Source: a virus (taxonomy: Duplodnaviria; Heunggongvirae; Uroviricota; Caudoviricetes). From it: DNA of 42,427 bases. Both the position numbers and the translations under genes were made by a program. The notes under the pieces are model-generated. The model had not been told where the DNA came from. It was given only the letters and a program-made list of their open reading frames with translations, and searched no databases. The stretch spans positions 1 through 42,427 of the IMG/VR virus record IMGVR_UViG_2563366875_000004; one strand, given 5' to 3'. Every line of letters starts with the position of its first letter. The stretch's first letter is position 1. Positions 1,307 to 20,766 of this stretch are shown one piece after another.

Positions 1307-3787
1307 TTAAAAATCAACCGGATTCGGGATCAGTTTTTGTATCGTGGCTGTAACGTATTTTGCCTGGTGACGGGCATCATCCAGCGCATTGTGGCGCACG
1401 CCTTCAAATGGAATAACTGTTCTGGCATCAAAGTCGATTGTTTTTCCCAGCTCAACGATTGTGCGTACATCGCGATCGTTGTAGTAGCGCCACGGGCAGG
1501 GGATGTCCAGACGTTCGTATGAGGTGCGCAAAATTGCGTTATCGAAAGTTGCACCATTACCCCATACCTGAACGAATTTTTCATCTGAGTATTCGTTGAT
1601 GAACTCCCGAAACCGCGAAAGGGCATCCTTCAGTTTTACCTGGTCTGTTAAAATGGCAGCTCTGGCTTCACTGGACTGCTTCAGCCACCATTCGATGGTT
1701 CCACCGTCAGGAACAGCCCCTGTATTCATTGCGTCAGTCAGACTGATAACGATATAAAATACTGGCCCGATTTCCCCTGTTTGTGGGTCGAAGAAAACCG
1801 CACCAATAACCACGATGGGCGCATTGGTGTTGGTTCCCATTGTTTCAAGGTCGATCATCAGGTGGTACCACACTCTGCTGGTGGATGTGATAACGTGATG
1901 ACCGTTCACCGCAATTAAGGGATCTGCCGTCCCGCCAGTTTCATTATCGCTGGCGTGGTCCTGAGCGCTGCCAGCATTCTCCTTGTGTGGATGTTCAGCG
2001 CCTTCCATTTCCTCCGGATCATTTTCCTGAACTTCAACCTGATTCTCTTCATCGAATGTTTCCTGGTATGTTGCGTCGCCCATCACCGCGCCACAATCAG
2101 GGCAGTTGCCGCCACCGCTCTGACCGCAGGCGGTGCAGACTTTTTCCGATTCCTGTTGCGCTACTGGCTCAGGTTGTTTCGTTTCTGGCTCGTTTTGTAA
2201 CGCATTTTGGCTGTTTTGTTCCGCTTTCTGGTCGTTCTGTTCCGTTTCTTGCTGGTTCTGGTACACAGAATCGCGGGTTTCAATCCCCTTCACCCATTTC
2301 GGATCATTCGGGTCGCTAATCCCTGCAACAAATTCTCCGCGAGAGGCAGCAAGCAACTTATCGGCGTCAGGCTGGCTGATATTGGCTGCCTGCATAATTT
2401 TGTTTACTTCGTCAGCGGTAACTTTTACCGGCTCTGGTTGTGCGGTCGTGTCAGAGGCACCAGTATTTTGTTGTGAACCTGAGTACGTGCCGTTTTTACG
2501 GGCAAAATATTCTTCTTTCGTGATTTCAGTAGCCCCTGCAGCCAGCGCCTTATTCAGACCAGAAAGTTTGTTTGCACGACCATATTTTTCGCCATCCTTA
2601 TCGGTGAAGAGGAAGTAGAACGGCCCCTCACGCTCTACAGATGGTTCAGTTTCCAGCGCGCTTTCATTTTTTTTGGTATCAGATACTTCAGTTTCCACTG
2701 CATCAGTTTGTGCTGCTGACGGCTGGAGAATATCAGCAGTGTTCTGGTCTGTTTCTTCATCCTCAAACACGCCCTTTGTCGCCAGGTATTCAGTGATGTA
2801 TTTGTTCAGCGCCACGGGATCTTTGTGAATGTCGATCGGACGCTCACGGACAAGGCCAAAAATAGTCTGACGGTCGTAGCGAACGGCATCAGGTTGTTTG
2901 CGCATTGATGCGGAAATACGCTTCCAGTCTTCGCGATCTTTGTCGATAACTTCATTTTTTGCCCAGCGATGGATGCTGCCGTCAATGTTTCCGGCATTAA
3001 TATCGCCAGGCCACAGAGCGTAGGCCAGTTCTTCATCCAGCGTTTTCCATGTCTGCTTGTATTCGCGACGAATGGCGGCAGTGGCGGGGTTGATTTTTCC
3101 TGCTGAGTTTTCAGTGTGCTGCCGGTTGACTCTGGCGCGGGCAAGATCAACAACAGACGTGTATTTCCCGGTTTCTTTGCGTTCGGCTTCGCGACGTTTT
3201 TTCCAGGTGCGTAATTCTGTCTGGATCTCAGGCCATTTTGCGCCCGGCTTACATTTATGTTTAACCCACCCGATGGCGAACAGCTTTAGTTCTGAATACA
3301 TGACGTTAACTTCAGGCATTTTCATCAGTGCCTCAACGATATGCCCGTCGAATGTTGCCATGTCCTCCTGCAACAATTCCTGTGCACTAATCACCATATC
3401 AACGGTGATGTTTTCACATGTACCGAACTTAACCAGGACCGCGTTCTGTACTTCAAGGGACAGCTTGTCAAAATTGACGTTCATCGGATCGGATTCTGGT
3501 TCGACCGGAACAAAGGAAGCGGATTCCTCATCCCAGCGGTTTTCCAGCATATATTCGGTATCCCAGGAGTCGATGGCAGGGCGGGGCATGCCGGGTTTAT
3601 CCTCGCAAACAAGAAATTTATAAGCGCAGTCCTGAGCAGCCGGATATTGCTCCAGGAATTGCCAGGTAAATTTGGCTCGGGCGCGGCGTTCGTCGCCGGC
3701 TTCAATGGCAGTAGCTACAGCGACTGCACCTTCTTCCTTTATTGCCTGTTCGTCCGGAATGGCGGCGCAAATAAAGACTTTACTCAT
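1307..3787 (-). CDS. Large exonuclease-family protein (826 aa): unassigned N-terminal region, acidic/Gln-rich linker, CxxC-x7-CxxC zinc ribbon, C-terminal DnaQ-like DEDDh 3'-5' exonuclease domain
   Basis: Exo motifs visible in translation: MIDLETMG (Exo I), WGNGATFDNAIL (Exo II), HNALDDARHQA (Exo III); zinc ribbon CTACGQSGGGNCPDCG; located next to xis where lambdoid phages carry recombination genes. Confidence 0.75.
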   Translation of the reverse strand: MSKVFICAAIPDEQAIKEEGAVAVATAIEAGDERRARAKFTWQFLEQYPAAQDCAYKFLVCEDKPGMPRPAIDSWDTEYMLENRWDEESASFVPVEPESDPMNVNFDKLSLEVQNAVLVKFGTCENITVDMVISAQELLQEDMATFDGHIVEALMKMPEVNVMYSELKLFAIGWVKHKCKPGAKWPEIQTELRTWKKRREAERKETGKYTSVVDLARARVNRQHTENSAGKINPATAAIRREYKQTWKTLDEELAYALWPGDINAGNIDGSIHRWAKNEVIDKDREDWKRISASMRKQPDAVRYDRQTIFGLVRERPIDIHKDPVALNKYITEYLATKGVFEDEETDQNTADILQPSAAQTDAVETEVSDTKKNESALETEPSVEREGPFYFLFTDKDGEKYGRANKLSGLNKALAAGATEITKEEYFARKNGTYSGSQQNTGASDTTAQPEPVKVTADEVNKIMQAANISQPDADKLLAASRGEFVAGISDPNDPKWVKGIETRDSVYQNQQETEQNDQKAEQNSQNALQNEPETKQPEPVAQQESEKVCTACGQSGGGNCPDCGAVMGDATYQETFDEENQVEVQENDPEEMEGAEHPHKENAGSAQDHASDNETGGTADPLIAVNGHHVITSTSRVWYHLMIDLETMGTNTNAPIVVIGAVFFDPQTGEIGPVFYIVISLTDAMNTGAVPDGGTIEWWLKQSSEARAAILTDQVKLKDALSRFREFINEYSDEKFVQVWGNGATFDNAILRTSYERLDIPCPWRYYNDRDVRTIVELGKTIDFDARTVIPFEGVRHNALDDARHQAKYVTATIQKLIPNPVDF

Positions 3788-14361: not shown

Positions 14362-14820
14362 ATGCGTATAGAGTTTGTTTTGCCTTACCCGCCGACGGTG
14401 AACACCTACTGGCGACGTCGTGGCAGCACATATTTTGTATCAAAAGCCGGTGAGCGTTATCGCCGTGATGTGGCGCTTATTGTTCGCCAGCAGCGACTGA
14501 AATTAAACCTGTCCGGAAGGCTGGCGATAAAGATTATTGCAGAGCCACCGGATAAGCGCCGTCGTGACTTGGACAATATTCTGAAAGCACCACTGGATGC
14601 ACTGACACATGCGGGGTTGCTTATCGACGACGAGCAGTTTGATGAAATCAATATTGTGCGCGGACTGCCTGTTCCTGGTGGTCGGTTGGGTGTGAAGATT
14701 TACGAAATTACAGGTGATAACGATGGCGCGAGATATTCAGCAGGTTATGGAGCGGTGGGGAGCATGGGCTGCAAACAATCACGAAGATGTGTCATGGGCG
14801 TCAATCGCTGCTGGTTTTAA
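14362..14820 (+). CDS. rusA: RusA-family Holliday junction resolvase (with C-terminal extension overlapping Q)
   Basis: N-terminal [19 protein letters not shown] and [26 protein letters not shown] are RusA hallmarks. Confidence 0.8.
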
Positions 14821-15109
14821 AGGATTAATCCCGCCGAAAGTGAAATCACGCCCTCAGTGTTCTGATGATGATGCAATGATAATTTGTGGCTGTATGGCCC
14901 GGTTGAACAAGAAAAATCAGGATTTGCACGATTTGTTGGTGGATTATTACGTAGGTGGAATGACTTTTATGGGGCTGGCACGAAAGCATGGGTGTTCGGA
15001 TACCTGTATTGGCAAGCGCCTGCAGAAAGCGGAAGGGGTTATTGATGGCATGTTGATGATGCTTGATATCCGACTGGAGATGGACCGATACGTAGAACGA
15101 ATTATGTAG
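14723..15109 (+). CDS. Short Q-like late antiterminator (QuuD-like, 128 aa)
   Basis: ATG after AGGTGA; size and position immediately upstream of a pR'-like promoter and terminator. Confidence 0.65.
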
Positions 15110-15999: not shown

Positions 16000-16545
16000 T
16001 TACTGAGTGACTTTTAGCCCACTAAATTTAAAAATATACTCTGGTTCTGTTACTTTTCCATAGAGGGTCATGCTTGATTCAAGGATGCAGTCCTTTGAAT
16101 TAGGGATAAAACGCCCTGAAAATGAAACTATATCACCAGGTTTTAATTCAGAGGCCACCGTGAAAATTTCAGAGTCAGGGCTGATAAGAGTATGATGACG
16201 AGAATCGGAAAATGCGTTATTCCAGGTTTTAACTTCAATGTCTGGTGCTATCTCCAAAGCCAACACGCCGTAACCATCACTATTGGCAGAAACAGTTTTT
16301 ACAGTACCAATCCAGTTTTTAACTTTTTTATCTTTTCTTAAGGTTGCGCAAACCGCTTTGTCTCGTTTTGCTTTTATTCCGCCCAGCTTCATGTCGTTAT
16401 CAACACCTTTAGCTGATGAAATTGCGTTTGAGACCGCCTCGATGAACTTTTCCTGCTGCTCAGGCATCTGGTAAGCAAAGGCTGGTGTCTGAAATATGGT
16501 AACCGAAAACGCTATGGTCATGATTTTTGTAAAAACACTATTCAT
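16000..16545 (-). CDS. Secreted (Sec signal peptide) protein of unknown function, 181 aa; AT-rich cargo gene
   Basis: Signal peptide MNSVFTKIMTIAFSVTIFQTPAFA with AFA cleavage motif; opposite strand to the late operon; lower GC than neighbours. Confidence 0.65.
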   Translation of the reverse strand: MNSVFTKIMTIAFSVTIFQTPAFAYQMPEQQEKFIEAVSNAISSAKGVDNDMKLGGIKAKRDKAVCATLRKDKKVKNWIGTVKTVSANSDGYGVLALEIAPDIEVKTWNNAFSDSRHHTLISPDSEIFTVASELKPGDIVSFSGRFIPNSKDCILESSMTLYGKVTEPEYIFKFSGLKVTQ

Positions 16546-16956: not shown

Positions 16957-17032
<76 letters not shown>

Positions 17033-17035
17033 TAT

Positions 17036-17110
<75 letters not shown>

Positions 17111-17379
17111 GCAGAGGACGATAGATACTAGGTTGTGTTAGGCACTGACACATTTTATGTGGGGCGTTTTTCCTGACTCCTTACCTCGCCCTGTACTGTA
17201 ATGAGTGATATCGGTTGCAGCACCAGTGCCGTTTTTTACGCCACCGGAATGGTGCATTATTGGTAGAGATTTGCAATGTCTCTGGCAGGGGCCGGTGATG
17301 CATCATTCTGGTGTTGTAAATAACACCATGACATTGAGATTAATCATATATTAAGCAAAACCTGGAAACACATCCTTAA

Positions 17380-17404
17380 CCGCCTCCACCAGGCGGTTTT
17401 TTTT
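17380..17404 (+). terminator. Intrinsic terminator downstream of the tRNA pair
   Basis: CCGCCT-CCACC-AGGCGG followed by T8. Confidence 0.6.
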
Positions 17405-17731
17405 ATTCTTAATTCGAAAAAAAGAAAACACGGACACTGATAATGTCCGTGCGGCAATGCCATGTAAGTCAGCGATGAATATGGCGCAAAAAAGCGCGGC
17501 TATCGGATTAACGCCGCGGGACAAAGTCCGTGAAGAAGAATAAGTATCGATCTCCTTCCGGAGACGAGTTGATATTACTAAGCTTTAAAAATGGTTTAAA
17601 TCCTCAGATTGACCTTAATTTCCGGTAAGTCTTATTTCATTTTCTCCGCGCTACCTCCGGCGCACATCACATCAGATAACACCACACAAAAGGCATCTGC
17701 AGGTGCCTTTGACGGGGTGTTGTTTTTTTAC

Positions 17732-17754
17732 GGGCCGCTGGTGGCCCTTTTTTA
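17732..17754 (+). terminator. Intrinsic terminator immediately upstream of the holin gene
   Basis: GGGCC-GCTGGT-GGCCC followed by TTTTTTATTT; 18 nt before the holin RBS. Confidence 0.5.
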
Positions 17755-17772
17755 TTTACAGGAGAAAAAAGT

Positions 17773-18165
17773 ATGTCTGAACCCTTATCCGGTTCCGGCA
17801 CGGCTGCGGCGCTCGGCGGGGCGACGGTATTCGGGCTGTTTACCGGAACGGATTTCGGGATTGTGTTTGGTGCGTTCGCCGGGGCGTTATTTGTGGCAAC
17901 AATTCCGCAGGCGCTTTCAGCCTGGCGTGTGGCAGCGCATTTTCTGGTGTCGTTCATTATCGGCGTGCTGGGCGCAGAGGTTCTGGCATCCTGGCTGGTA
18001 AAGCATACAGAGTTTGATGGTGCACCTGTTGACGCATTGTGTGCAGTGCTGGTGTCTGTATTGTCGGTAAAAGTGCTGTCCTTTGTGCACAGGCAGGACG
18101 TTATATCACTGATGTCCTGTCTGCTCTCCCGCCTGAAGAGTGGAGGAGGCGACAATGTTAAGTAA
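17773..18165 (+). CDS. Holin-like membrane protein (130 aa)
   Basis: AGGAGAAAAAAGT RBS; multiple Gly/Ala-rich transmembrane segments; first gene of the lysis cassette. Confidence 0.6.
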   Translation: MSEPLSGSGTAAALGGATVFGLFTGTDFGIVFGAFAGALFVATIPQALSAWRVAAHFLVSFIIGVLGAEVLASWLVKHTEFDGAPVDALCAVLVSVLSVKVLSFVHRQDVISLMSCLLSRLKSGGGDNVK

Positions 18166-18430
18166 CCTTCCCGGATTGCTGAATGTGGCGTTATGCACGG
18201 TTATCGTGCTGACGCTCTTTTTTTATCGTCGCCGTGATTCCAGACATAAACCGCTGATGTCATGGCTGGCCTGGCTGCTGATGCTGCTGTATGCCTTTGC
18301 GCCCCTCAGCTATCTGTGTGGTCGCCCGTTAGCAACGGGCTGGCTGGAAGTGTTTTTTAATCTGTTGTTCTGCGTGCTGGTAATACGCGCACGCGGGAAC
18401 GTCGCAAGAATCTTTCCATTGTTGAGGTGA
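18155..18430 (+). CDS. Second lysis-cassette membrane protein (about 92 aa)
   Basis: ATG after GGAGGAGG; hydrophobic segments LLNVALCTVIVLTLFFY and LAWLLMLLYAFAPL. Confidence 0.5.
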   Translation: MLSNLPGLLNVALCTVIVLTLFFYRRRDSRHKPLMSWLAWLLMLLYAFAPLSYLCGRPLATGWLEVFFNLLFCVLVIRARGNVARIFPLLR

Positions 18431-18810
18431 ATATGTCGGGTAAATTCAGATTCAGCCGTCGCAGTGAAAAAAATCTGGAGGGCGTCAAACCACAGCTGGC
18501 TGCTGTCGTTCGCCGTGCCCTTGAGCTGACGGAGGTTGATTTCGGTATTACGGAAGGCCTGCGCAGTAAGTATCGCCAGAAACAGCTGGTCGCGGAAGGG
18601 AAAAGCCAGACTATGAACAGCCGCCACCTGACCGGTGATGCGGTGGATGTTGTGGCCTACATTGGCAGCCAGGTGTCATGGGACTGGCCTCTGTACGAGA
18701 AAATCGCGCAGGCATTTAAGCAGGCTGCCGCAGAGCTGGGAACTGCCATCGAATGGGGCGGGGACTGGAAAACACTGAAAGACGGGCCTCACTTTCAGTT
18801 GAAACGCTGA
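18427..18810 (+). CDS. Endolysin, peptidase M15 (VanY-like) family
   Basis: Motifs SRHLTGDAVD and WGGDW...GPHF typical of M15 zinc peptidase endolysins; ATG at 18427 or 18433. Confidence 0.75.
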   Translation: MNMSGKFRFSRRSEKNLEGVKPQLAAVVRRALELTEVDFGITEGLRSKYRQKQLVAEGKSQTMNSRHLTGDAVDVVAYIGSQVSWDWPLYEKIAQAFKQAAAELGTAIEWGGDWKTLKDGPHFQLKR

Positions 18811-18824
18811 TAACCAGGTGTGTT

Positions 18825-19007
18825 ATGAGCAGAAAACACTGGACACACAGAATGCCGCGAACGGCGGCGAAATGGGCACTGGTAGCGATACTGGTGCCTT
18901 TTTTATTGGTGGGATGCGTCAGCCTGGATAAGGCGCGCCAGCTTTTCGATACGGCTTCTCAGGTCTGCCAGCTTATCGATGGCGTTCGGCAGTGTCTGCA
19001 GAACTGA
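18825..19007 (+). CDS. Small lipoprotein (60 aa), o-spanin-like
   Basis: Lipobox LLVGC after a signal sequence; directly after the endolysin; no i-spanin ORF identified. Confidence 0.45.
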   Translation: MSRKHWTHRMPRTAAKWALVAILVPFLLVGCVSLDKARQLFDTASQVCQLIDGVRQCLQN

Positions 19008-19178
19008 TCACCTGTAATAGCAGAATATTTTGCTGAAAAATGAAGGGTGCGCCAGCGTCCGGAAAGCATGAAATTCTGTGTTAGTGGCTATTCAATAAAA
19101 TAAATTCTTTCTGTCGCCGCGAATACTCAAATGTTGATCAGTGCCCGGTGCGGCGACGGGCTTCGATATCAGGAGACG

Positions 19179-19478
19179 ATGATGGAAAAAACAGAAAACA
19201 AACCGATTGTAATTGGTGCTGATGCTGCTCCGTTTAAGTTTGAGTTGTCTCAACTGGTGGAGATGCGCATCAGTGATGAATGGGGTGAGGTTAAAGCCCG
19301 TGCGCAGTATGCGGATGGCGAAAACCAGTACTTGATCCACTACAAGGCAGCTGACGGTCGCGCCACGACGGAGTGGTTTGGTGAGTCAATGCTGGAAGCA
19401 ACAGAAGATGATCGTCATCCAGGTTGCCCGGTATTTGCTGGTATGGAATTACCGGAAGGTGCAGTCGTTACTGAGTAA
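19179..19478 (+). CDS. Hypothetical protein (99 aa)
   Basis: AGGAGACG RBS before ATGATG; acidic soluble protein. Confidence 0.5.
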   Translation: MMEKTENKPIVIGADAAPFKFELSQLVEMRISDEWGEVKARAQYADGENQYLIHYKAADGRATTEWFGESMLEATEDDRHPGCPVFAGMELPEGAVVTE

Positions 19479-19523
19479 CAGGCATTACAGCAGCCCTTCT
19501 GTGTGAGGGGCTGCGATAATGCT

Positions 19524-19724
19524 TTAGTTGTCTTTCATAAATCCTTTAATTGCCCATCCCACAAGCCTGGTGATGCTGTATATCAACAAGGCACATATCA
19601 GGGAAACAAGGATATCAAACAGTGAAAATCCCCGAGCCTCTGTTGATAAAAGGCCGAAAATGAACACCAGAATAGCTAACAGAATTCCTACCCGGTGAAA
19701 ACCTTTAGAAATCGTGTTTTTCAT
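19524..19724 (-). CDS. Small two-helix membrane protein (66 aa), opposite strand
   Basis: GGAGGA RBS 4 nt before ATG; two hydrophobic helices; same position as the lambda bor-type lysogenic-conversion gene. Confidence 0.5.
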   Translation of the reverse strand: MKNTISKGFHRVGILLAILVFIFGLLSTEARGFSLFDILVSLICALLIYSITRLVGWAIKGFMKDN

Positions 19725-19784
19725 TTGTCCTCCGTATTGGTTTTTTAAAGGGTGGAAATTTTAACATCAGAAGAGTGAAGTTCT

Positions 19785-20135
19785 ATGCCATCACGAATCC
19801 CCCGCGCATGCCGTAAACGTGGATGTGCAGGTACAACCACAGACAGTTCTGGTTACTGCGATAAACATCGCGGTGAAGGCTGGGTGCAGCACCAGCGCGG
19901 ACTGAGCCGCCACCAGCGCGGCTATGGCTCAAAATGGACGGTGATTCGTGCCCGTATTCTGAAGCGCGATAAAGGTCTGTGTCAGTTGTGTCTGCGTGTC
20001 GGTGTGGTGAGCGAGGCGAAAACCGTCGACCACATCATCCCGAAAGCGCATGGCGGAACAGACGCAGACAGCAACCTGCAGAGTCTGTGCTGGCCTTGCC
20101 ATAAAGAGAAAACAGCGCGCGAACGTATCAACTGA
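19785..20135 (+). CDS. HNH endonuclease (terminase-associated)
   Basis: C-x-x-C...H-x-x-x-H pattern (CQLCLR...VDHIIPKAHGGTDADSNLQSLCWPCH); immediately upstream of the terminase genes. Confidence 0.8.
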   Translation: MPSRIPRACRKRGCAGTTTDSSGYCDKHRGEGWVQHQRGLSRHQRGYGSKWTVIRARILKRDKGLCQLCLRVGVVSEAKTVDHIIPKAHGGTDADSNLQSLCWPCHKEKTARERIN

Positions 20136-20283
20136 TAACTGTTCTCGTCTGTAAGGGAGGGGCGGGTAAAATCTCTGTAACCCTGGGCGTTCGGGACCGC
20201 CCGCCAACCCTTCTTCGCATCGCCGCAGGTTCGAAAACTTTTTTTTGGGAATGTGATTAAACGATTGATAGGTAAAACCGATT

Positions 20284-20766
20284 ATGTCAGGACCCCCGAA
20301 AACCCCGCCACGCCTGCATTTGATACGAGGCAACCCCTCAAAGCGCCCCGTTAAAGACTCCAAAAAAACCGCTAAAAAGGACGAAAAAGGTCTCCCTAAA
20401 ATTCCGCAGCATTTAGGGGCGCAGGGGAAGTACTGGTTCAGGCGAATGGCGGAAGAGCTGAATGCGGAAGGGATCATTTCTCAGCTTGATGCGCGTGCAC
20501 TTGAGTTACTGGTGGAAGCCTACACCGAATACCGGCATCACTGCGAAACACTCGATGTTGAGGGGTATACCTACCGCACGGAAACGCAGAATGGCGATGT
20601 GATGATCAAGGCACATCCGGCTGCGGCGATGAAGGCGGATGCCTGGAAGCGGATCCGGGCGATGCTTGCAGAGTTTGGTATGTCACCGGCAAGCCGGGCG
20701 AAAGTAAATATCGCCGGACCGGATGATGTTGATCCGCTGGCAGAGCTTTTAAAAGCGAGAGACTGA
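20284..20766 (+). CDS. Terminase small subunit (P27-family-like)
   Basis: Basic N-terminus, helical core, ends 1 nt overlapping the large-subunit ATG. Confidence 0.65.
   Translation: MSGPPKTPPRLHLIRGNPSKRPVKDSKKTAKKDEKGLPKIPQHLGAQGKYWFRRMAEELNAEGIISQLDARALELLVEAYTEYRHHCETLDVEGYTYRTETQNGDVMIKAHPAAAMKADAWKRIRAMLAEFGMSPASRAKVNIAGPDDVDPLAELLKARD

What the first reader, a model, noticed from the sequence alone, without database searches (positions are those of the whole stretch)
19179..19724. Convergent gene pair between lysis and packaging genes: a 99-aa acidic protein and a reverse-strand 66-aa two-helix membrane protein
The membrane protein has the strongest RBS in the region and sits in the bor-like position, where lysogenic-conversion genes are found. 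The pair shares a hairpin at about 19487-19512. Candidate functions are superinfection exclusion or a small toxin with a partner.
Basis: inference. Interest (0 to 1): 0.45.

Follow-up and report, generated by a model that had tools for sequence, protein, structure and literature searches.

The report
Reverse-strand membrane-protein moron in P27-like prophage
Both small genes are real but unlinked. The 66-aa reverse-strand gene is a self-contained add-on cassette ("moron") encoding a two-helix inner-membrane protein from an uncatalogued family, probably made by the dormant prophage, and the 99-aa acidic protein is an unrelated late-operon accessory gene.

Summary
ORF99 (19179-19478, +; likelier start 19182) is acidic, with pI 4.5. 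ORF66 (19524-19724, -) is a helical-hairpin membrane protein. A strong hairpin (19481-19522) lies between them.

The window is a phiP27-like lambdoid prophage: Q antiterminator, two holins, M15 endolysin, HNH, P27-type terminase.

Comparative genomics splits the "pair":
- phiP27 and about 250 E. coli genomes carry ORF99 without ORF66.
- Citrobacter and several E. coli prophages carry ORF66 without ORF99.
- ORF66 also occurs without the HNH gene.
- Between the same two loci ORF99 is 92% identical and ORF66 only 66%.

ORF66 is a 262-bp insertion (19523-19784) relative to phiP27. Its GC is 39%, against 55-57% in its neighbours. It has an invariant extended -10 motif (TGnTAAAAT) and a conserved Shine-Dalgarno (SD) site, and dN/dS is 0.13-0.33. 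By sequence it fits the classic moron, set antisense to the Q-dependent late operon.

It belongs to an unnamed family of at least 332 clusters with conserved cytoplasmic motifs (GFHRxG ... YxxxRxxGWxIxGF) and a variable periplasmic loop. Members sit on prophages, plasmids and variable islands.

Function is untested. A lysogen-expressed inner-membrane protection or exclusion role is the best guess. A toxin-plus-partner reading is not supported. This is a new member of a known kind, of modest interest.

The parts
19179..19478 (+). ORF99: soluble acidic protein on the late-operon strand. It is the homologue of phiP27 L33, and its probable true start is ATG 19182 (98 aa).
   Evidence: ORF list. 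phrog_1935 at E 1.2e-60, no Pfam match. 98% identical to phiP27 L33. pI 4.48. PGAP start in E. coli A8. The conserved core, aa 17-80, also occurs as a stand-alone ~58-65 aa gene in Burkholderia and P2-like phages.
19171..19175 (+). Shine-Dalgarno AGGAG for ORF99, 6 nt before ATG 19182.
   Evidence: Read from the sequence. Duplex energy -7.4 kcal/mol.
19481..19522 (.). Conserved composite hairpin (inner stem 19490-19499 / 19505-19514, outer stem about 19482-19487 / 19517-19522). It marks the end of the lysis/accessory module and is the point where the two convergent genes meet.
   Evidence: Fold energy -32.7 kcal/mol (+ strand) and -25.7 (- strand), z about -6. Present in phiP27 without ORF66, in L006, L010 and L026 without ORF99, and in L003, L027 and L028. 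On the + strand it is followed by TTTAGTTGTCTTT. There is no U-run on the - strand (sequence).
19523..19784 (-). Moron cassette: a 262-bp insertion relative to phiP27, where 19 bp (CGGTATTAAGGAGATTCCA) join the hairpin to the HNH start codon.
   Evidence: Alignment with phiP27 and E. coli A8. GC 0.389, against 0.567 for HNH and 0.552 for the endolysin. The same cassette occurs in four different neighbour contexts.
19524..19724 (-). ORF66: 66-aa helical-hairpin inner-membrane protein, predicted N-in/C-in. Conserved motifs are MKNTISKGFHRxG at the N-terminus and YxxxRxxGWxIxGF at the C-terminus.
   Evidence: ORF list. AF2 helices 2-31 and 35-65, pLDDT 78. dN/dS 0.13-0.33. Family alignments. Charge bias across 25 family members: N-terminus K+R 81 / D+E 6, loop 10/35, C-terminus 42/17.
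19728..19733 (-). Shine-Dalgarno GGAGGA for ORF66 (GGAGGAcaaATG).
   Evidence: Sequence. Duplex energy -9.5 kcal/mol. ATACGGAG/A is conserved in diverged cassettes.
19758..19785 (-). Predicted ORF66 promoter. The extended -10 is TG (19766-19765) + TAAAAT (19763-19758). A weak -35-like TAGAAC lies at 19785-19780 with a 16-nt spacer, and it overlaps the HNH start codon.
   Evidence: GATGnTA(A/G)AAT is invariant in 8 cassettes that are otherwise only 66-70% alike, including loci with no HNH gene upstream. Coordinates. The generic -35/-10 scan did not call it.
19785..20135 (+). HNH endonuclease (packaging accessory). It is a neighbour, not part of the cassette. Its ribosome-binding region now lies inside the cassette.
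   Evidence: Pfam HNH at 3e-16. SD duplex only -2.4 kcal/mol, whereas phiP27 has AAGGAG.

Best explanation
Two unrelated accessory modules sit on either side of a conserved hairpin near the right end of a phiP27-like lambdoid prophage.

(1) ORF66 cassette, 19523-19784. This is an autonomous moron. It is low-GC inserted DNA with its own extended -10 promoter and strong SD, and it is oriented against the Q-dependent late operon. It ends one base from the backbone hairpin. It encodes a 66-aa helical-hairpin inner-membrane protein. Both termini are predicted cytoplasmic and carry the family's conserved motifs (FHR near residue 10; Y49, R53, GW, GF near the C-terminus). A short, acidic, fast-evolving loop faces the periplasm.

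Inferred mechanism: the gene is transcribed constitutively from the repressed prophage. After induction it is damped by convergent, Q-antiterminated late transcription, in the 'non-contiguous operon' manner. The protein acts at the cytoplasmic membrane for the benefit of the lysogen. The most likely role is interference with genome entry or membrane steps of incoming phages, working like HK97 gp15 or T4 Imm but not homologous to them.

(2) ORF99. This is a separate, dispensable soluble protein on the late strand (phrog_1935, beta-rich core) of unknown role. It is not ORF66's partner.

Shown: both genes are real, the cassette boundaries, independent distribution, the promoter and SD footprint, purifying selection, the hairpin fold and the charge bias behind the N-in/C-in prediction, and family breadth.

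Inferred: expression in the lysogen, silencing by late transcription, and the exclusion or protection function. The confidence given here (0.6) is for the whole picture of an autonomous moron that is not a functional pair with ORF99. My own probability for the specific exclusion function is about 0.35.
For: Prophage context:
- Q antiterminator at 14714-15109.
- Holins, M15 endolysin, HNH and P27-type terS/terL, with synteny to phiP27.

Insertion and composition:
- 262 bp in the window where phiP27 has 19 bp.
- GC 0.39, against 0.55-0.57 in the neighbours.

Independence of the two genes:
- ORF99 region in 264 of 5426 complete E. coli genomes, ORF66 cassette in 17.
- ORF66 without ORF99 in L006-L013, L026 and L027.
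- ORF66 without HNH in L003 and L027.
- ORF99 92% identical and ORF66 66% identical between the window and L003.

Real gene:
- dN/dS 0.13-0.33 overall. By region it is 0.18 for each terminus and 0.48 for the loop.
- The exact sequence is on 142 contigs and a sibling on 347, including Salmonella.

Own expression signals:
- TGnTAAAAT and the SD are invariant across 8 diverged cassettes while the spacer between them diverges.
- SD duplex -9.5 kcal/mol.

Membrane hairpin and topology.

Family:
- 135 representatives at E<1e-3 in 1.84e9 proteins.
- 332 clusters, none with a Pfam domain.
- Members lie in mobile or variable DNA: IS-flanked plasmid-type regions, a phage-plasmid repressor operon, and variable islands.

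Slot is a cargo hot spot:
- An Ais-like phosphatase in L028 and a Zn-ribbon-like ORF in L005 occupy the same slot on the same reverse strand.

Precedents:
- The moron definition and the gp15 exclusion protein (PMC3594210).
- Reverse-strand defence genes upstream of the packaging module, damped by Q-dependent transcription (PMC11364771).
Against: - There are no expression data.
- The generic sigma-70 scan found no promoter here, and the -35-like hexamer is weak.
- On ORF66's own strand the hairpin has no U-run, so it is not a canonical intrinsic terminator.
- ORF66 has no detectable homology to any protein of known function. Tested and negative: Pfam, PHROGs, NCBIfam, PADLOC, PDB sequences, BFVD folds, HK97 gp15 and Bor.
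- It has no match in 50,697 sequenced phage isolates and is rare, at 0.3% of complete E. coli genomes.
- Nothing in the sequence separates an exclusion role from other membrane roles.
Confidence: 0.6

Rival explanations
1. Host-physiology lysogenic conversion. ORF66 is a small membrane protein that modulates a host envelope, transport or stress function, or a virulence-related trait, rather than phage entry.
For: Distant family members lie beside fimbrial operons and the shf-capU-virK-type locus on IS-rich plasmid-like DNA in E. coli. Carriers include ETEC/STEC and animal isolates. The same slot carries an LPS-modifying Ais-like phosphatase in L028. Other toxin cargo, LT-II and Stx2e, sits nearby in relatives. 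Bor, the positional analogue, is a serum-resistance factor (PMC3594210).
Against: No homology to any characterised small membrane regulator. Neighbours vary from locus to locus, so there is no consistent functional association.
Confidence: 0.25
2. Small membrane toxin or effector. ORF66 would be a type I toxin-like, pinholin-like or abortive-infection membrane disruptor, kept in check by antisense late or 3'-overlapping RNA, or acting as the effector of a larger system.
For: It is small, very hydrophobic and has two transmembrane helices, the size class of class II holins and pinholins. It lies next to the lysis cassette and is fully antisense to the late transcript. Some distant members sit at the 3' end of multi-gene operons in variable islands.
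Against: It has a strong SD that is only partly and weakly paired in the predicted 5' leader fold, and a constitutive-looking promoter. No conserved antisense promoter or sRNA was found. It matches no holin, toxin or PADLOC family. Neighbouring genes of distant members match no PADLOC system either. The conserved residues are cytoplasmic interface motifs rather than a pore-like pattern. It is stably carried by hundreds of isolates with an intact reading frame.
Confidence: 0.15
3. Defence plus counter-defence pair, like phi80 taiEcA/atiEcA. ORF66 would be a lysogen-expressed defence gene, and the adjacent late-strand ORF99 would be its antidote, expressed on induction to prevent self-inhibition.
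For: The architecture matches: a reverse-strand moron interrupts the Q late operon just upstream of the packaging module, next to a small late-strand gene (PMC11364771). The two genes are adjacent in two different packaging backgrounds: window, A8, tcmA_3 and PSS-15 on one side, L003 on the other.
Against: ORF66 occurs without ORF99 in at least four backgrounds, and ORF99 occurs without ORF66 in most of the 264 E. coli genomes that carry its region and in phiP27. Divergence is discordant, 92% against 66%. Neither protein matches phi80, which encodes the prototype Tai/Ati pair, or any other phage record beyond those listed, and Tai is 26 kDa. The ORF99 core occurs in unrelated phage positions, such as between terS and the adaptor gene in P2-like phages.
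Confidence: 0.08
4. ORF66 is a chance ORF in an intergenic spacer, and the conserved DNA serves only HNH expression or packaging.
For: PGAP leaves the homologue unannotated in 6 of 17 E. coli genomes. The cassette does supply the HNH translation-initiation region.
Against: dN/dS is 0.13-0.33 with near-saturated synonymous change. The frame is kept through indels in multiples of three. The cassette is conserved where no HNH gene exists. A wider protein family exists.
Confidence: 0.02

Closest known systems
Phage lambda bor (lysogenic-conversion moron downstream of Rz)
   Same: Same slot and orientation: a single small gene on the reverse strand between the lysis cassette and cos/terminase. Bor is a moron product that benefits the lysogen (PMC3594210).
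   Different: Bor is a 97-aa outer-membrane lipoprotein. ORF66 has no lipobox, is a two-helix inner-membrane protein, and shows no profile similarity (hhalign probability 0.2%).
HK97 gp15 moron (YebO-like inner-membrane superinfection-exclusion protein)
   Same: A roughly 60-aa inner-membrane protein on a promoter-gene-terminator insertion inside a late operon, absent from close relatives. It is the best functional model for what ORF66 may do (PMC3594210).
   Different: No homology (hhalign probability 3%). From its sequence, gp15 has one N-terminal hydrophobic stretch and a polar tail, and it lies on the same strand as the tail operon. ORF66 is a helical hairpin on the opposite strand, in the lysis-packaging junction.
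phi80 taiEcA/atiEcA 'non-contiguous operon' (He et al. 2024, PMC11364771)
   Same: A reverse-strand, lysogen-expressed gene interrupts the Q-dependent late operon just upstream of the packaging module, with a small late-strand neighbour. Q expression lowers the level of the reverse gene's product.
   Different: Tai is a 26-kDa protein that acts on tail assembly and binds its Ati partner. ORF66 is a 7-kDa membrane hairpin. ORF99 is not linked to it and neither protein matches phi80, which encodes the prototype Tai/Ati pair.
Class II holins / pinholins and type I membrane toxins
   Same: Similar size, hydrophobicity and, for class II holins, two transmembrane segments. ORF66 also lies close to the lysis genes.
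   Different: No match to any holin or toxin model. ORF66 is on the opposite strand to the lysis cassette, which already has two holins. It has its own constitutive-type promoter, and no antisense sRNA family was detected.

Membership tests
Moron (Juhala/Hendrix sense; Cumby et al. 2012, PMC3594210) | Extra DNA between two genes that are adjacent in a related phage | tested here: met
   262 bp (19523-19784) lie between the hairpin and the HNH start, where phiP27 has 19 bp.
Moron (Juhala/Hendrix sense; Cumby et al. 2012, PMC3594210) | GC content different from surrounding genes | tested here: met
   Cassette 0.389 and ORF66 0.398, against HNH 0.567, endolysin 0.552 and the whole window 0.505.
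Moron (Juhala/Hendrix sense; Cumby et al. 2012, PMC3594210) | Own promoter | tested here: met
   Sequence level only. The extended -10 TGnTAAAAT is invariant in 8 diverged cassettes, including those with unrelated upstream DNA. The generic scan was negative. There is no transcript evidence.
Moron (Juhala/Hendrix sense; Cumby et al. 2012, PMC3594210) | Own terminator | tested here: inconclusive
   A strong hairpin starts one base after the stop codon, but no U-run follows it on ORF66's strand. The hairpin belongs to the phage backbone.
Moron (Juhala/Hendrix sense; Cumby et al. 2012, PMC3594210) | Expressed from the repressed prophage | not testable with these tools
   Needs RNA-seq, 5'-RACE or a tagged protein in a lysogen.
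Bor family | Sequence homology to Bor, with lipoprotein signal and lipobox | tested here: not met
   hhalign probability 0.2%. The ORF66 N-terminus is MKNTISKGFHR with no lipobox Cys.
HK97 gp15 / YebO family | Sequence homology to gp15/YebO | tested here: not met
   hhalign probability 3.3%, over 11 aligned columns only.
Tai/Ati defence and counter-defence | Homology to a Tai (~26 kDa) or Ati protein | tested here: not met
   tblastn of ORF66 against all 50,697 phage records gives no match. ORF99 hits do not include phi80, which encodes the prototype TaiEcA/AtiEcA pair. Tai size is from PMC11364771.
Tai/Ati defence and counter-defence | Reverse-strand gene interrupting the Q late operon upstream of the packaging module | tested here: met
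   Q lies at 14714-15109. ORF66 is on the - strand between the lysis genes and HNH/terS.
Tai/Ati defence and counter-defence | Defence gene accompanied by its adjacent counter-defence gene | tested here: not met
   ORF66 occurs without ORF99 and ORF99 without ORF66.
Known superinfection-exclusion or defence protein families (Imm, SieB and others in Pfam; all PADLOC models) | Match to the family model | tested here: not met
   No Pfam family below E 0.05. No PADLOC model at E<=1. NCBIfam gave only sub-threshold noise.
Holins / pinholins | Match to a holin family model and location in the late-strand lysis cassette | tested here: not met
   No Pfam or PHROG holin match. The gene is on the opposite strand, and two holin genes are already present at 17773-18165 and 18140-18430.
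Type I toxin-antitoxin | Cognate antisense sRNA and translationally restrained toxin mRNA | tested here: inconclusive
   No Rfam family in 18800-20400. No antisense promoter predicted. The SD is strong and only weakly paired in the predicted leader. An unknown sRNA cannot be excluded.
phrog_1935 (ORF99) | Full-length match to the PHROG profile | tested here: met
   E 1.2e-60 over residues 2-99. The family has no known function.

The most novel reading that the evidence does not exclude
ORF66 would be the first examined member of a widespread, uncatalogued family of two-helix membrane proteins carried on mobile elements. The family has at least 332 clusters at 90% identity. Its cytoplasmic motifs GFHRxG and YxxxRxxGWxIxGF are conserved. 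Its periplasmic loop is hypervariable and in some members expands into a 50-100 aa inserted domain. On this reading the family is a new single-gene class of inner-membrane superinfection-exclusion or anti-injection proteins: the conserved cytoplasmic face docks on a host component and the variable periplasmic part sets phage specificity.
Probability: 0.25. Interest if true: 0.55.

Novelty: new member of a known kind. Interest (0 to 1): 0.3.

Why it matters
Small prophage genes like this are often missed. PGAP left this one unannotated in 6 of the 17 complete E. coli genomes that carry it. Yet morons of this type have repeatedly proved to be exclusion, defence or virulence factors.

This analysis removes a false lead, the 'toxin with partner' reading. 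It defines the exact cassette, with its promoter, SD, ORF and boundaries, ready for cloning. It also shows that the protein belongs to a broad unnamed family with a clear motif signature and a testable topology.

If a phage-exclusion phenotype were found, it would add a new single-gene membrane defence family and a variable-loop specificity model. If not, this is one more ordinary lysogenic-conversion candidate in a known cargo hot spot of Stx2e/LT-II-type prophages.

Tried and rejected
- Family libraries. Pfam, PHROGs, NCBIfam and PADLOC gave nothing for ORF66. For ORF99 the only match was phrog_1935, a family of unknown function. Scanning 25 diverse ORF66-family members gave only scattered single hits. 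Scanning 28 ORF99 homologues gave nothing.
- PDB sequence searches with both family profiles returned only noise, E >= 0.28.
- Foldseek of the ORF66 model against BFVD returned generic helical hairpins, best E 0.15. I treated this as uninformative.
- The AlphaFold2 model of ORF99 was poor (pLDDT 48, a few beta strands), so I ran no fold search on it.
- Rfam on 18800-20400 gave nothing relevant.
- The generic promoter/terminator scan called neither the conserved extended -10 nor the hairpin. I relied on phylogenetic footprinting instead.
- Literature searches by protein accession and by the GFHR motif found nothing.
- PADLOC scans of the neighbours of distant family members found no known defence system, apart from a generic HTH control protein.
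- A first dN/dS script and two coordinate slips cost.
Full report
**What the window is.** The region lies in a lambdoid, phiP27-like prophage of Escherichia. Upstream on the + strand are DUF968, RusA and a Q antiterminator (14714-15109, Phage_antitermQ 2.5e-52). Two tRNAs follow. Then come two holins (17773-18165 and 18140-18430), an M15 endolysin (18427-18810) and a 60-aa lipoprotein-like ORF (18825-19007, phrog_7528). After the finding come an HNH endonuclease (19785-20135), a P27-family small terminase (20284-20766) and the large terminase. The 801 bp around the finding match phage phiP27 at 96% over the first 523 bp only. They match E. coli A8 at 98.8% over the full length.

**The observation.**
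- ORF99 is 99 aa from ATG 19179. AGGAG at 19171-19175 fits ATG 19182 better, and PGAP uses that start.
- ORF99 is acidic: pI 4.48, with 20 D+E against 9 K+R.
- ORF66 (19524-19724, - strand) is hydrophobic and basic: GRAVY 1.04, pI 9.9.
- AlphaFold2 folds ORF66 as two long helices, residues 2-31 and 35-65, at pLDDT 78.
- The hairpin is real and bigger than noted. An inner 10-bp G+C-rich stem (19490-19514) is extended by an outer stem to 19481-19522.
- It folds at -32.7 kcal/mol on the + strand and -25.7 on the - strand. Both have z about -6, and no shuffle out of 200 did as well.
- The RBS claim is true only locally. ORF66 scores -9.5 kcal/mol, against -7.4 to -2.4 for its neighbours. The holin start at 18155 scores -12.1.

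**ORF66 is an inserted cassette.** In phiP27 the L33 gene (the ORF99 homologue) is followed by the same hairpin, then 19 bp carrying a strong SD, then the HNH start codon. In the window those 19 bp are replaced by 262 bp, 19523-19784, which hold ORF66 and its upstream region. The cassette has 39% GC, against 55-57% for the flanking genes.

I aligned the gene strand of eight cassettes whose coding parts are only about 66-70% identical. Two short blocks upstream of the start codon stay invariant:
- GATGnTA(A/G)AAT, an extended -10 promoter motif. In the window the TG is at 19766-19765 and TAAAAT at 19763-19758.
- The SD block ATACGGAG/A.

The spacer between these blocks diverges freely. The footprint also persists in loci where the DNA further upstream is unrelated and there is no HNH gene. 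A weak -35-like TAGAAC (19785-19780) abuts the HNH start codon. As a result, HNH now uses a poor SD supplied by the cassette (-2.4 kcal/mol). The generic promoter scan did not call this promoter, so the case for it rests on conservation.

**ORF66 is a real gene.** Pairwise Nei-Gojobori estimates against homologues in L003, L006 and L010 give dN/dS 0.13-0.33 with dS about 0.9-1.5. By region, dN/dS is 0.18 for the N-terminus plus first helix, 0.18 for the C-terminal motif, 0.30 for the second helix and 0.48 for the loop. Length differences are all whole codons. The exact protein is found on 142 contigs and a near-identical sibling on 347, including Salmonella. It is always labelled hypothetical.

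**The two genes are not a unit.** Five arrangements exist.
- (a) ORF99-hairpin-ORF66-HNH: the window, A8, CFIAFB20180511, tcmA_3 and PSS-15.
- (b) ORF60-hairpin-ORF66-HNH with no ORF99: Citrobacter L006-L009, E. coli L010-L013 and the ETEC1738 group.
- (c) ORF99-hairpin-ORF68, followed by a lambda-type terminase and no HNH: the LT-II prophage L003.
- (d) ORF68 with neither ORF99 nor HNH: the Sx181 group.
- (e) ORF99 alone: phiP27 and most of the 264 complete E. coli genomes that hold the ORF99 region. Only 17 of 5426 hold the ORF66 cassette.

Between the window and L003, ORF99 is 92% identical and ORF66 only 66%. The two sides of the hairpin therefore have different histories. The hairpin itself is present in every arrangement. 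It is a backbone feature marking the end of the lysis/accessory module, and modules are exchanged on either side of it.

On the late strand the hairpin is followed by a T-rich tail (TTTAGTTGTCTTT). That tail is the reverse complement of the last ORF66 codons. On ORF66's own strand no U-run follows. So the hairpin is at best a non-canonical terminator, or a 3'-end stabiliser, for ORF66.

**What ORF66 belongs to.** A single-sequence search found only nine close clusters, in Escherichia and Citrobacter. A profile search of 1.84 billion representatives found 135 proteins at E<1e-3. A second profile search of the 5.8-billion set found 332 clusters. None of them has a Pfam domain or an informative name.

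The family signature is an N-terminal (I/V)SxGFHRxG and a C-terminal YxxxRxxGW(V/I)IxGF. F9, H10, R11, G13, Y49 and W57 are invariant in 25 diverse members. Charges follow the positive-inside rule across the family:
- N-terminus: 81 K+R against 6 D+E.
- Loop: 10 K+R against 35 D+E.
- C-terminus: 42 K+R against 17 D+E.

This implies that both termini, and therefore both conserved motifs, are cytoplasmic, and that the variable loop is periplasmic. Some members carry 50-100 extra residues in the loop or long C-terminal extensions.

Distant members sit in mobile or variable DNA:
- Next to fimbrial and shf-capU-virK-type loci among IS elements.
- In a repressor-led operon of a phage-plasmid-like element.
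- In variable chromosomal islands.

No neighbour is shared between these contexts, and none matches a PADLOC system.

**What ORF66 is not.** It matches no model in Pfam, PHROGs, NCBIfam or PADLOC. It has no PDB relative. It has no significant fold match beyond generic hairpins, and no match in 50,697 phage records. Profile comparison with HK97 gp15 gives probability 3%, and with lambda Bor 0.2%.

**ORF99.** It matches phrog_1935 (unknown function) and has 79 homologous clusters in Escherichia, Shigella, Salmonella and Yersinia. Its conserved core (aa 17-80; FKFxLxQLV...GENQYLIHYKAADGRA...W..ES.L) also exists as a stand-alone 58-65 aa protein. Examples are Burkholderia phage Bcep176 and P2-like ESSI2 phages, in quite different genome positions. 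The AF2 model is beta-rich but poor, at pLDDT 48. No promoter was predicted upstream of it, so by inference it is read with the late operon. It is dispensable, being absent from arrangements (b) and (d).

**Mechanism.** The sequence-level evidence fits the original definition of a moron: extra DNA relative to relatives, deviant GC, and its own expression signals (PMC3594210). The orientation matches a recently described architecture, in which lysogen-expressed genes sit antisense inside the Q-dependent late operon just upstream of the packaging module and fall in level when Q drives late transcription through them (PMC11364771). The same slot holds other reverse-strand cargo in relatives: an Ais-like histidine phosphatase in L028 and a Zn-ribbon-like ORF in L005.

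From this I infer three things:
- ORF66 is made constitutively by the repressed prophage.
- It inserts N-in/C-in into the inner membrane.
- It serves the lysogen.

The pattern of conserved cytoplasmic motifs with a faster-evolving, length-variable periplasmic loop fits a protein with a fixed host-side contact and a variable outward-facing surface. An exclusion protein would look like this, but the pattern does not prove it. I put about 0.35 on exclusion or defence, 0.25 on another host-physiology role, 0.15 on a toxin or effector role, under 0.1 on a Tai/Ati-like pair with ORF99, and the remainder on roles not listed here.

**Verdict.** The features are real, and the 'bor-like moron' reading is well supported. 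The 'pair' and 'toxin with partner' readings are not. This is a new member of a known kind, a prophage moron encoding a small inner-membrane protein, from a family that no database has catalogued. Interest is modest (0.3) unless a phenotype is shown.

Noticed in passing
window 18825-19007 (+): A 60-aa ORF right after the endolysin has a signal peptide and lipobox (FLLVGC) and a 29-aa mature part with two further Cys. It matches phrog_7528, of unknown function. It sits where spanins are expected, but no i-spanin partner or C-terminal TM segment was seen, so the spanin equipment of P27-like phages looks atypical.
   Followed up: partly
window 19725-19787: The moron replaced the strong HNH ribosome-binding site of phiP27 (AAGGAG) with a weak one (duplex -2.4 kcal/mol). 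The -35-like element of the ORF66 promoter overlaps the HNH start codon, so cassette insertion may lower or couple HNH expression.
   Followed up: partly
window 16957-17772: tRNA-Thr (16957-17032) and tRNA-Gly (17036-17110) sit upstream of the holins. At the same position phiP27 carries ileZ, argO and stx2e. Here about 660 bp follow the tRNAs with only short overlapping ORFs and no toxin genes.
   Followed up: no
window 16000-16545 (-): A reverse-strand 181-aa ORF with no Pfam match lies between the Q/ORF6N region and the tRNAs. It is another candidate moron antisense to the late transcript.
   Followed up: no
L003 (NZ_AP019856.1) 500-1645: A related prophage carries heat-labile enterotoxin LT-II A and B genes between the second holin and the endolysin. 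It also has the ORF99 + ORF68 arrangement with a lambda-type terminase.
   Followed up: no
L028 (NZ_CP028764.1) 1710-2640: In E. coli A10 the same slot holds a reverse-strand Ais/PmrG-like histidine phosphatase, annotated as an LPS core heptose(II)-phosphate phosphatase. Next to it is a truncated 58-aa ORF66 homologue that lacks the C-terminal GW..GF motif.
   Followed up: partly
L005 (NZ_AP045174.1) 3578-3775 (-): In an Stx2e prophage without ORF66, the slot after the hairpin contains an unannotated reverse-strand 65-aa ORF with CxxC...CP zinc-ribbon-like motifs. Its Pfam hits are weak and below the curated cut-offs (DUF1451 at 0.0015, Zn_ribbon_8 at 0.0055).
   Followed up: partly
E. coli complete genomes, hits H58-H63: PGAP leaves the intact 68-aa ORF66 homologue unannotated in 6 of the 17 genomes that carry the cassette.
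   Followed up: yes
L025 (NZ_CP091020.1) 2437-2685: In STEC306-308 the prophage is cut off next to hyaA, right at the 3' end of the ORF66 gene. This gives an 82-aa variant with a replaced C-terminus. An ORF99 copy lies about 8 kb away on the other strand, suggesting a rearranged or remnant prophage.
   Followed up: no
proteins P0097, P0098, P0112, P0113, P0121, P0129, P0133, P0136: Long forms of the ORF66 family keep the N- and C-terminal motifs. They carry a 50-100 aa insert in the periplasmic loop, or 150-230 aa C-terminal extensions with further hydrophobic segments. A large 127-aa subfamily appears in metagenomes.
   Followed up: no
cluster 2: The 90%-identity cluster that holds the 98-aa ORF99 protein has a 116-aa HNH endonuclease as its representative and many HNH members. 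This looks like a clustering artefact, or is caused by fused gene calls.
   Followed up: no
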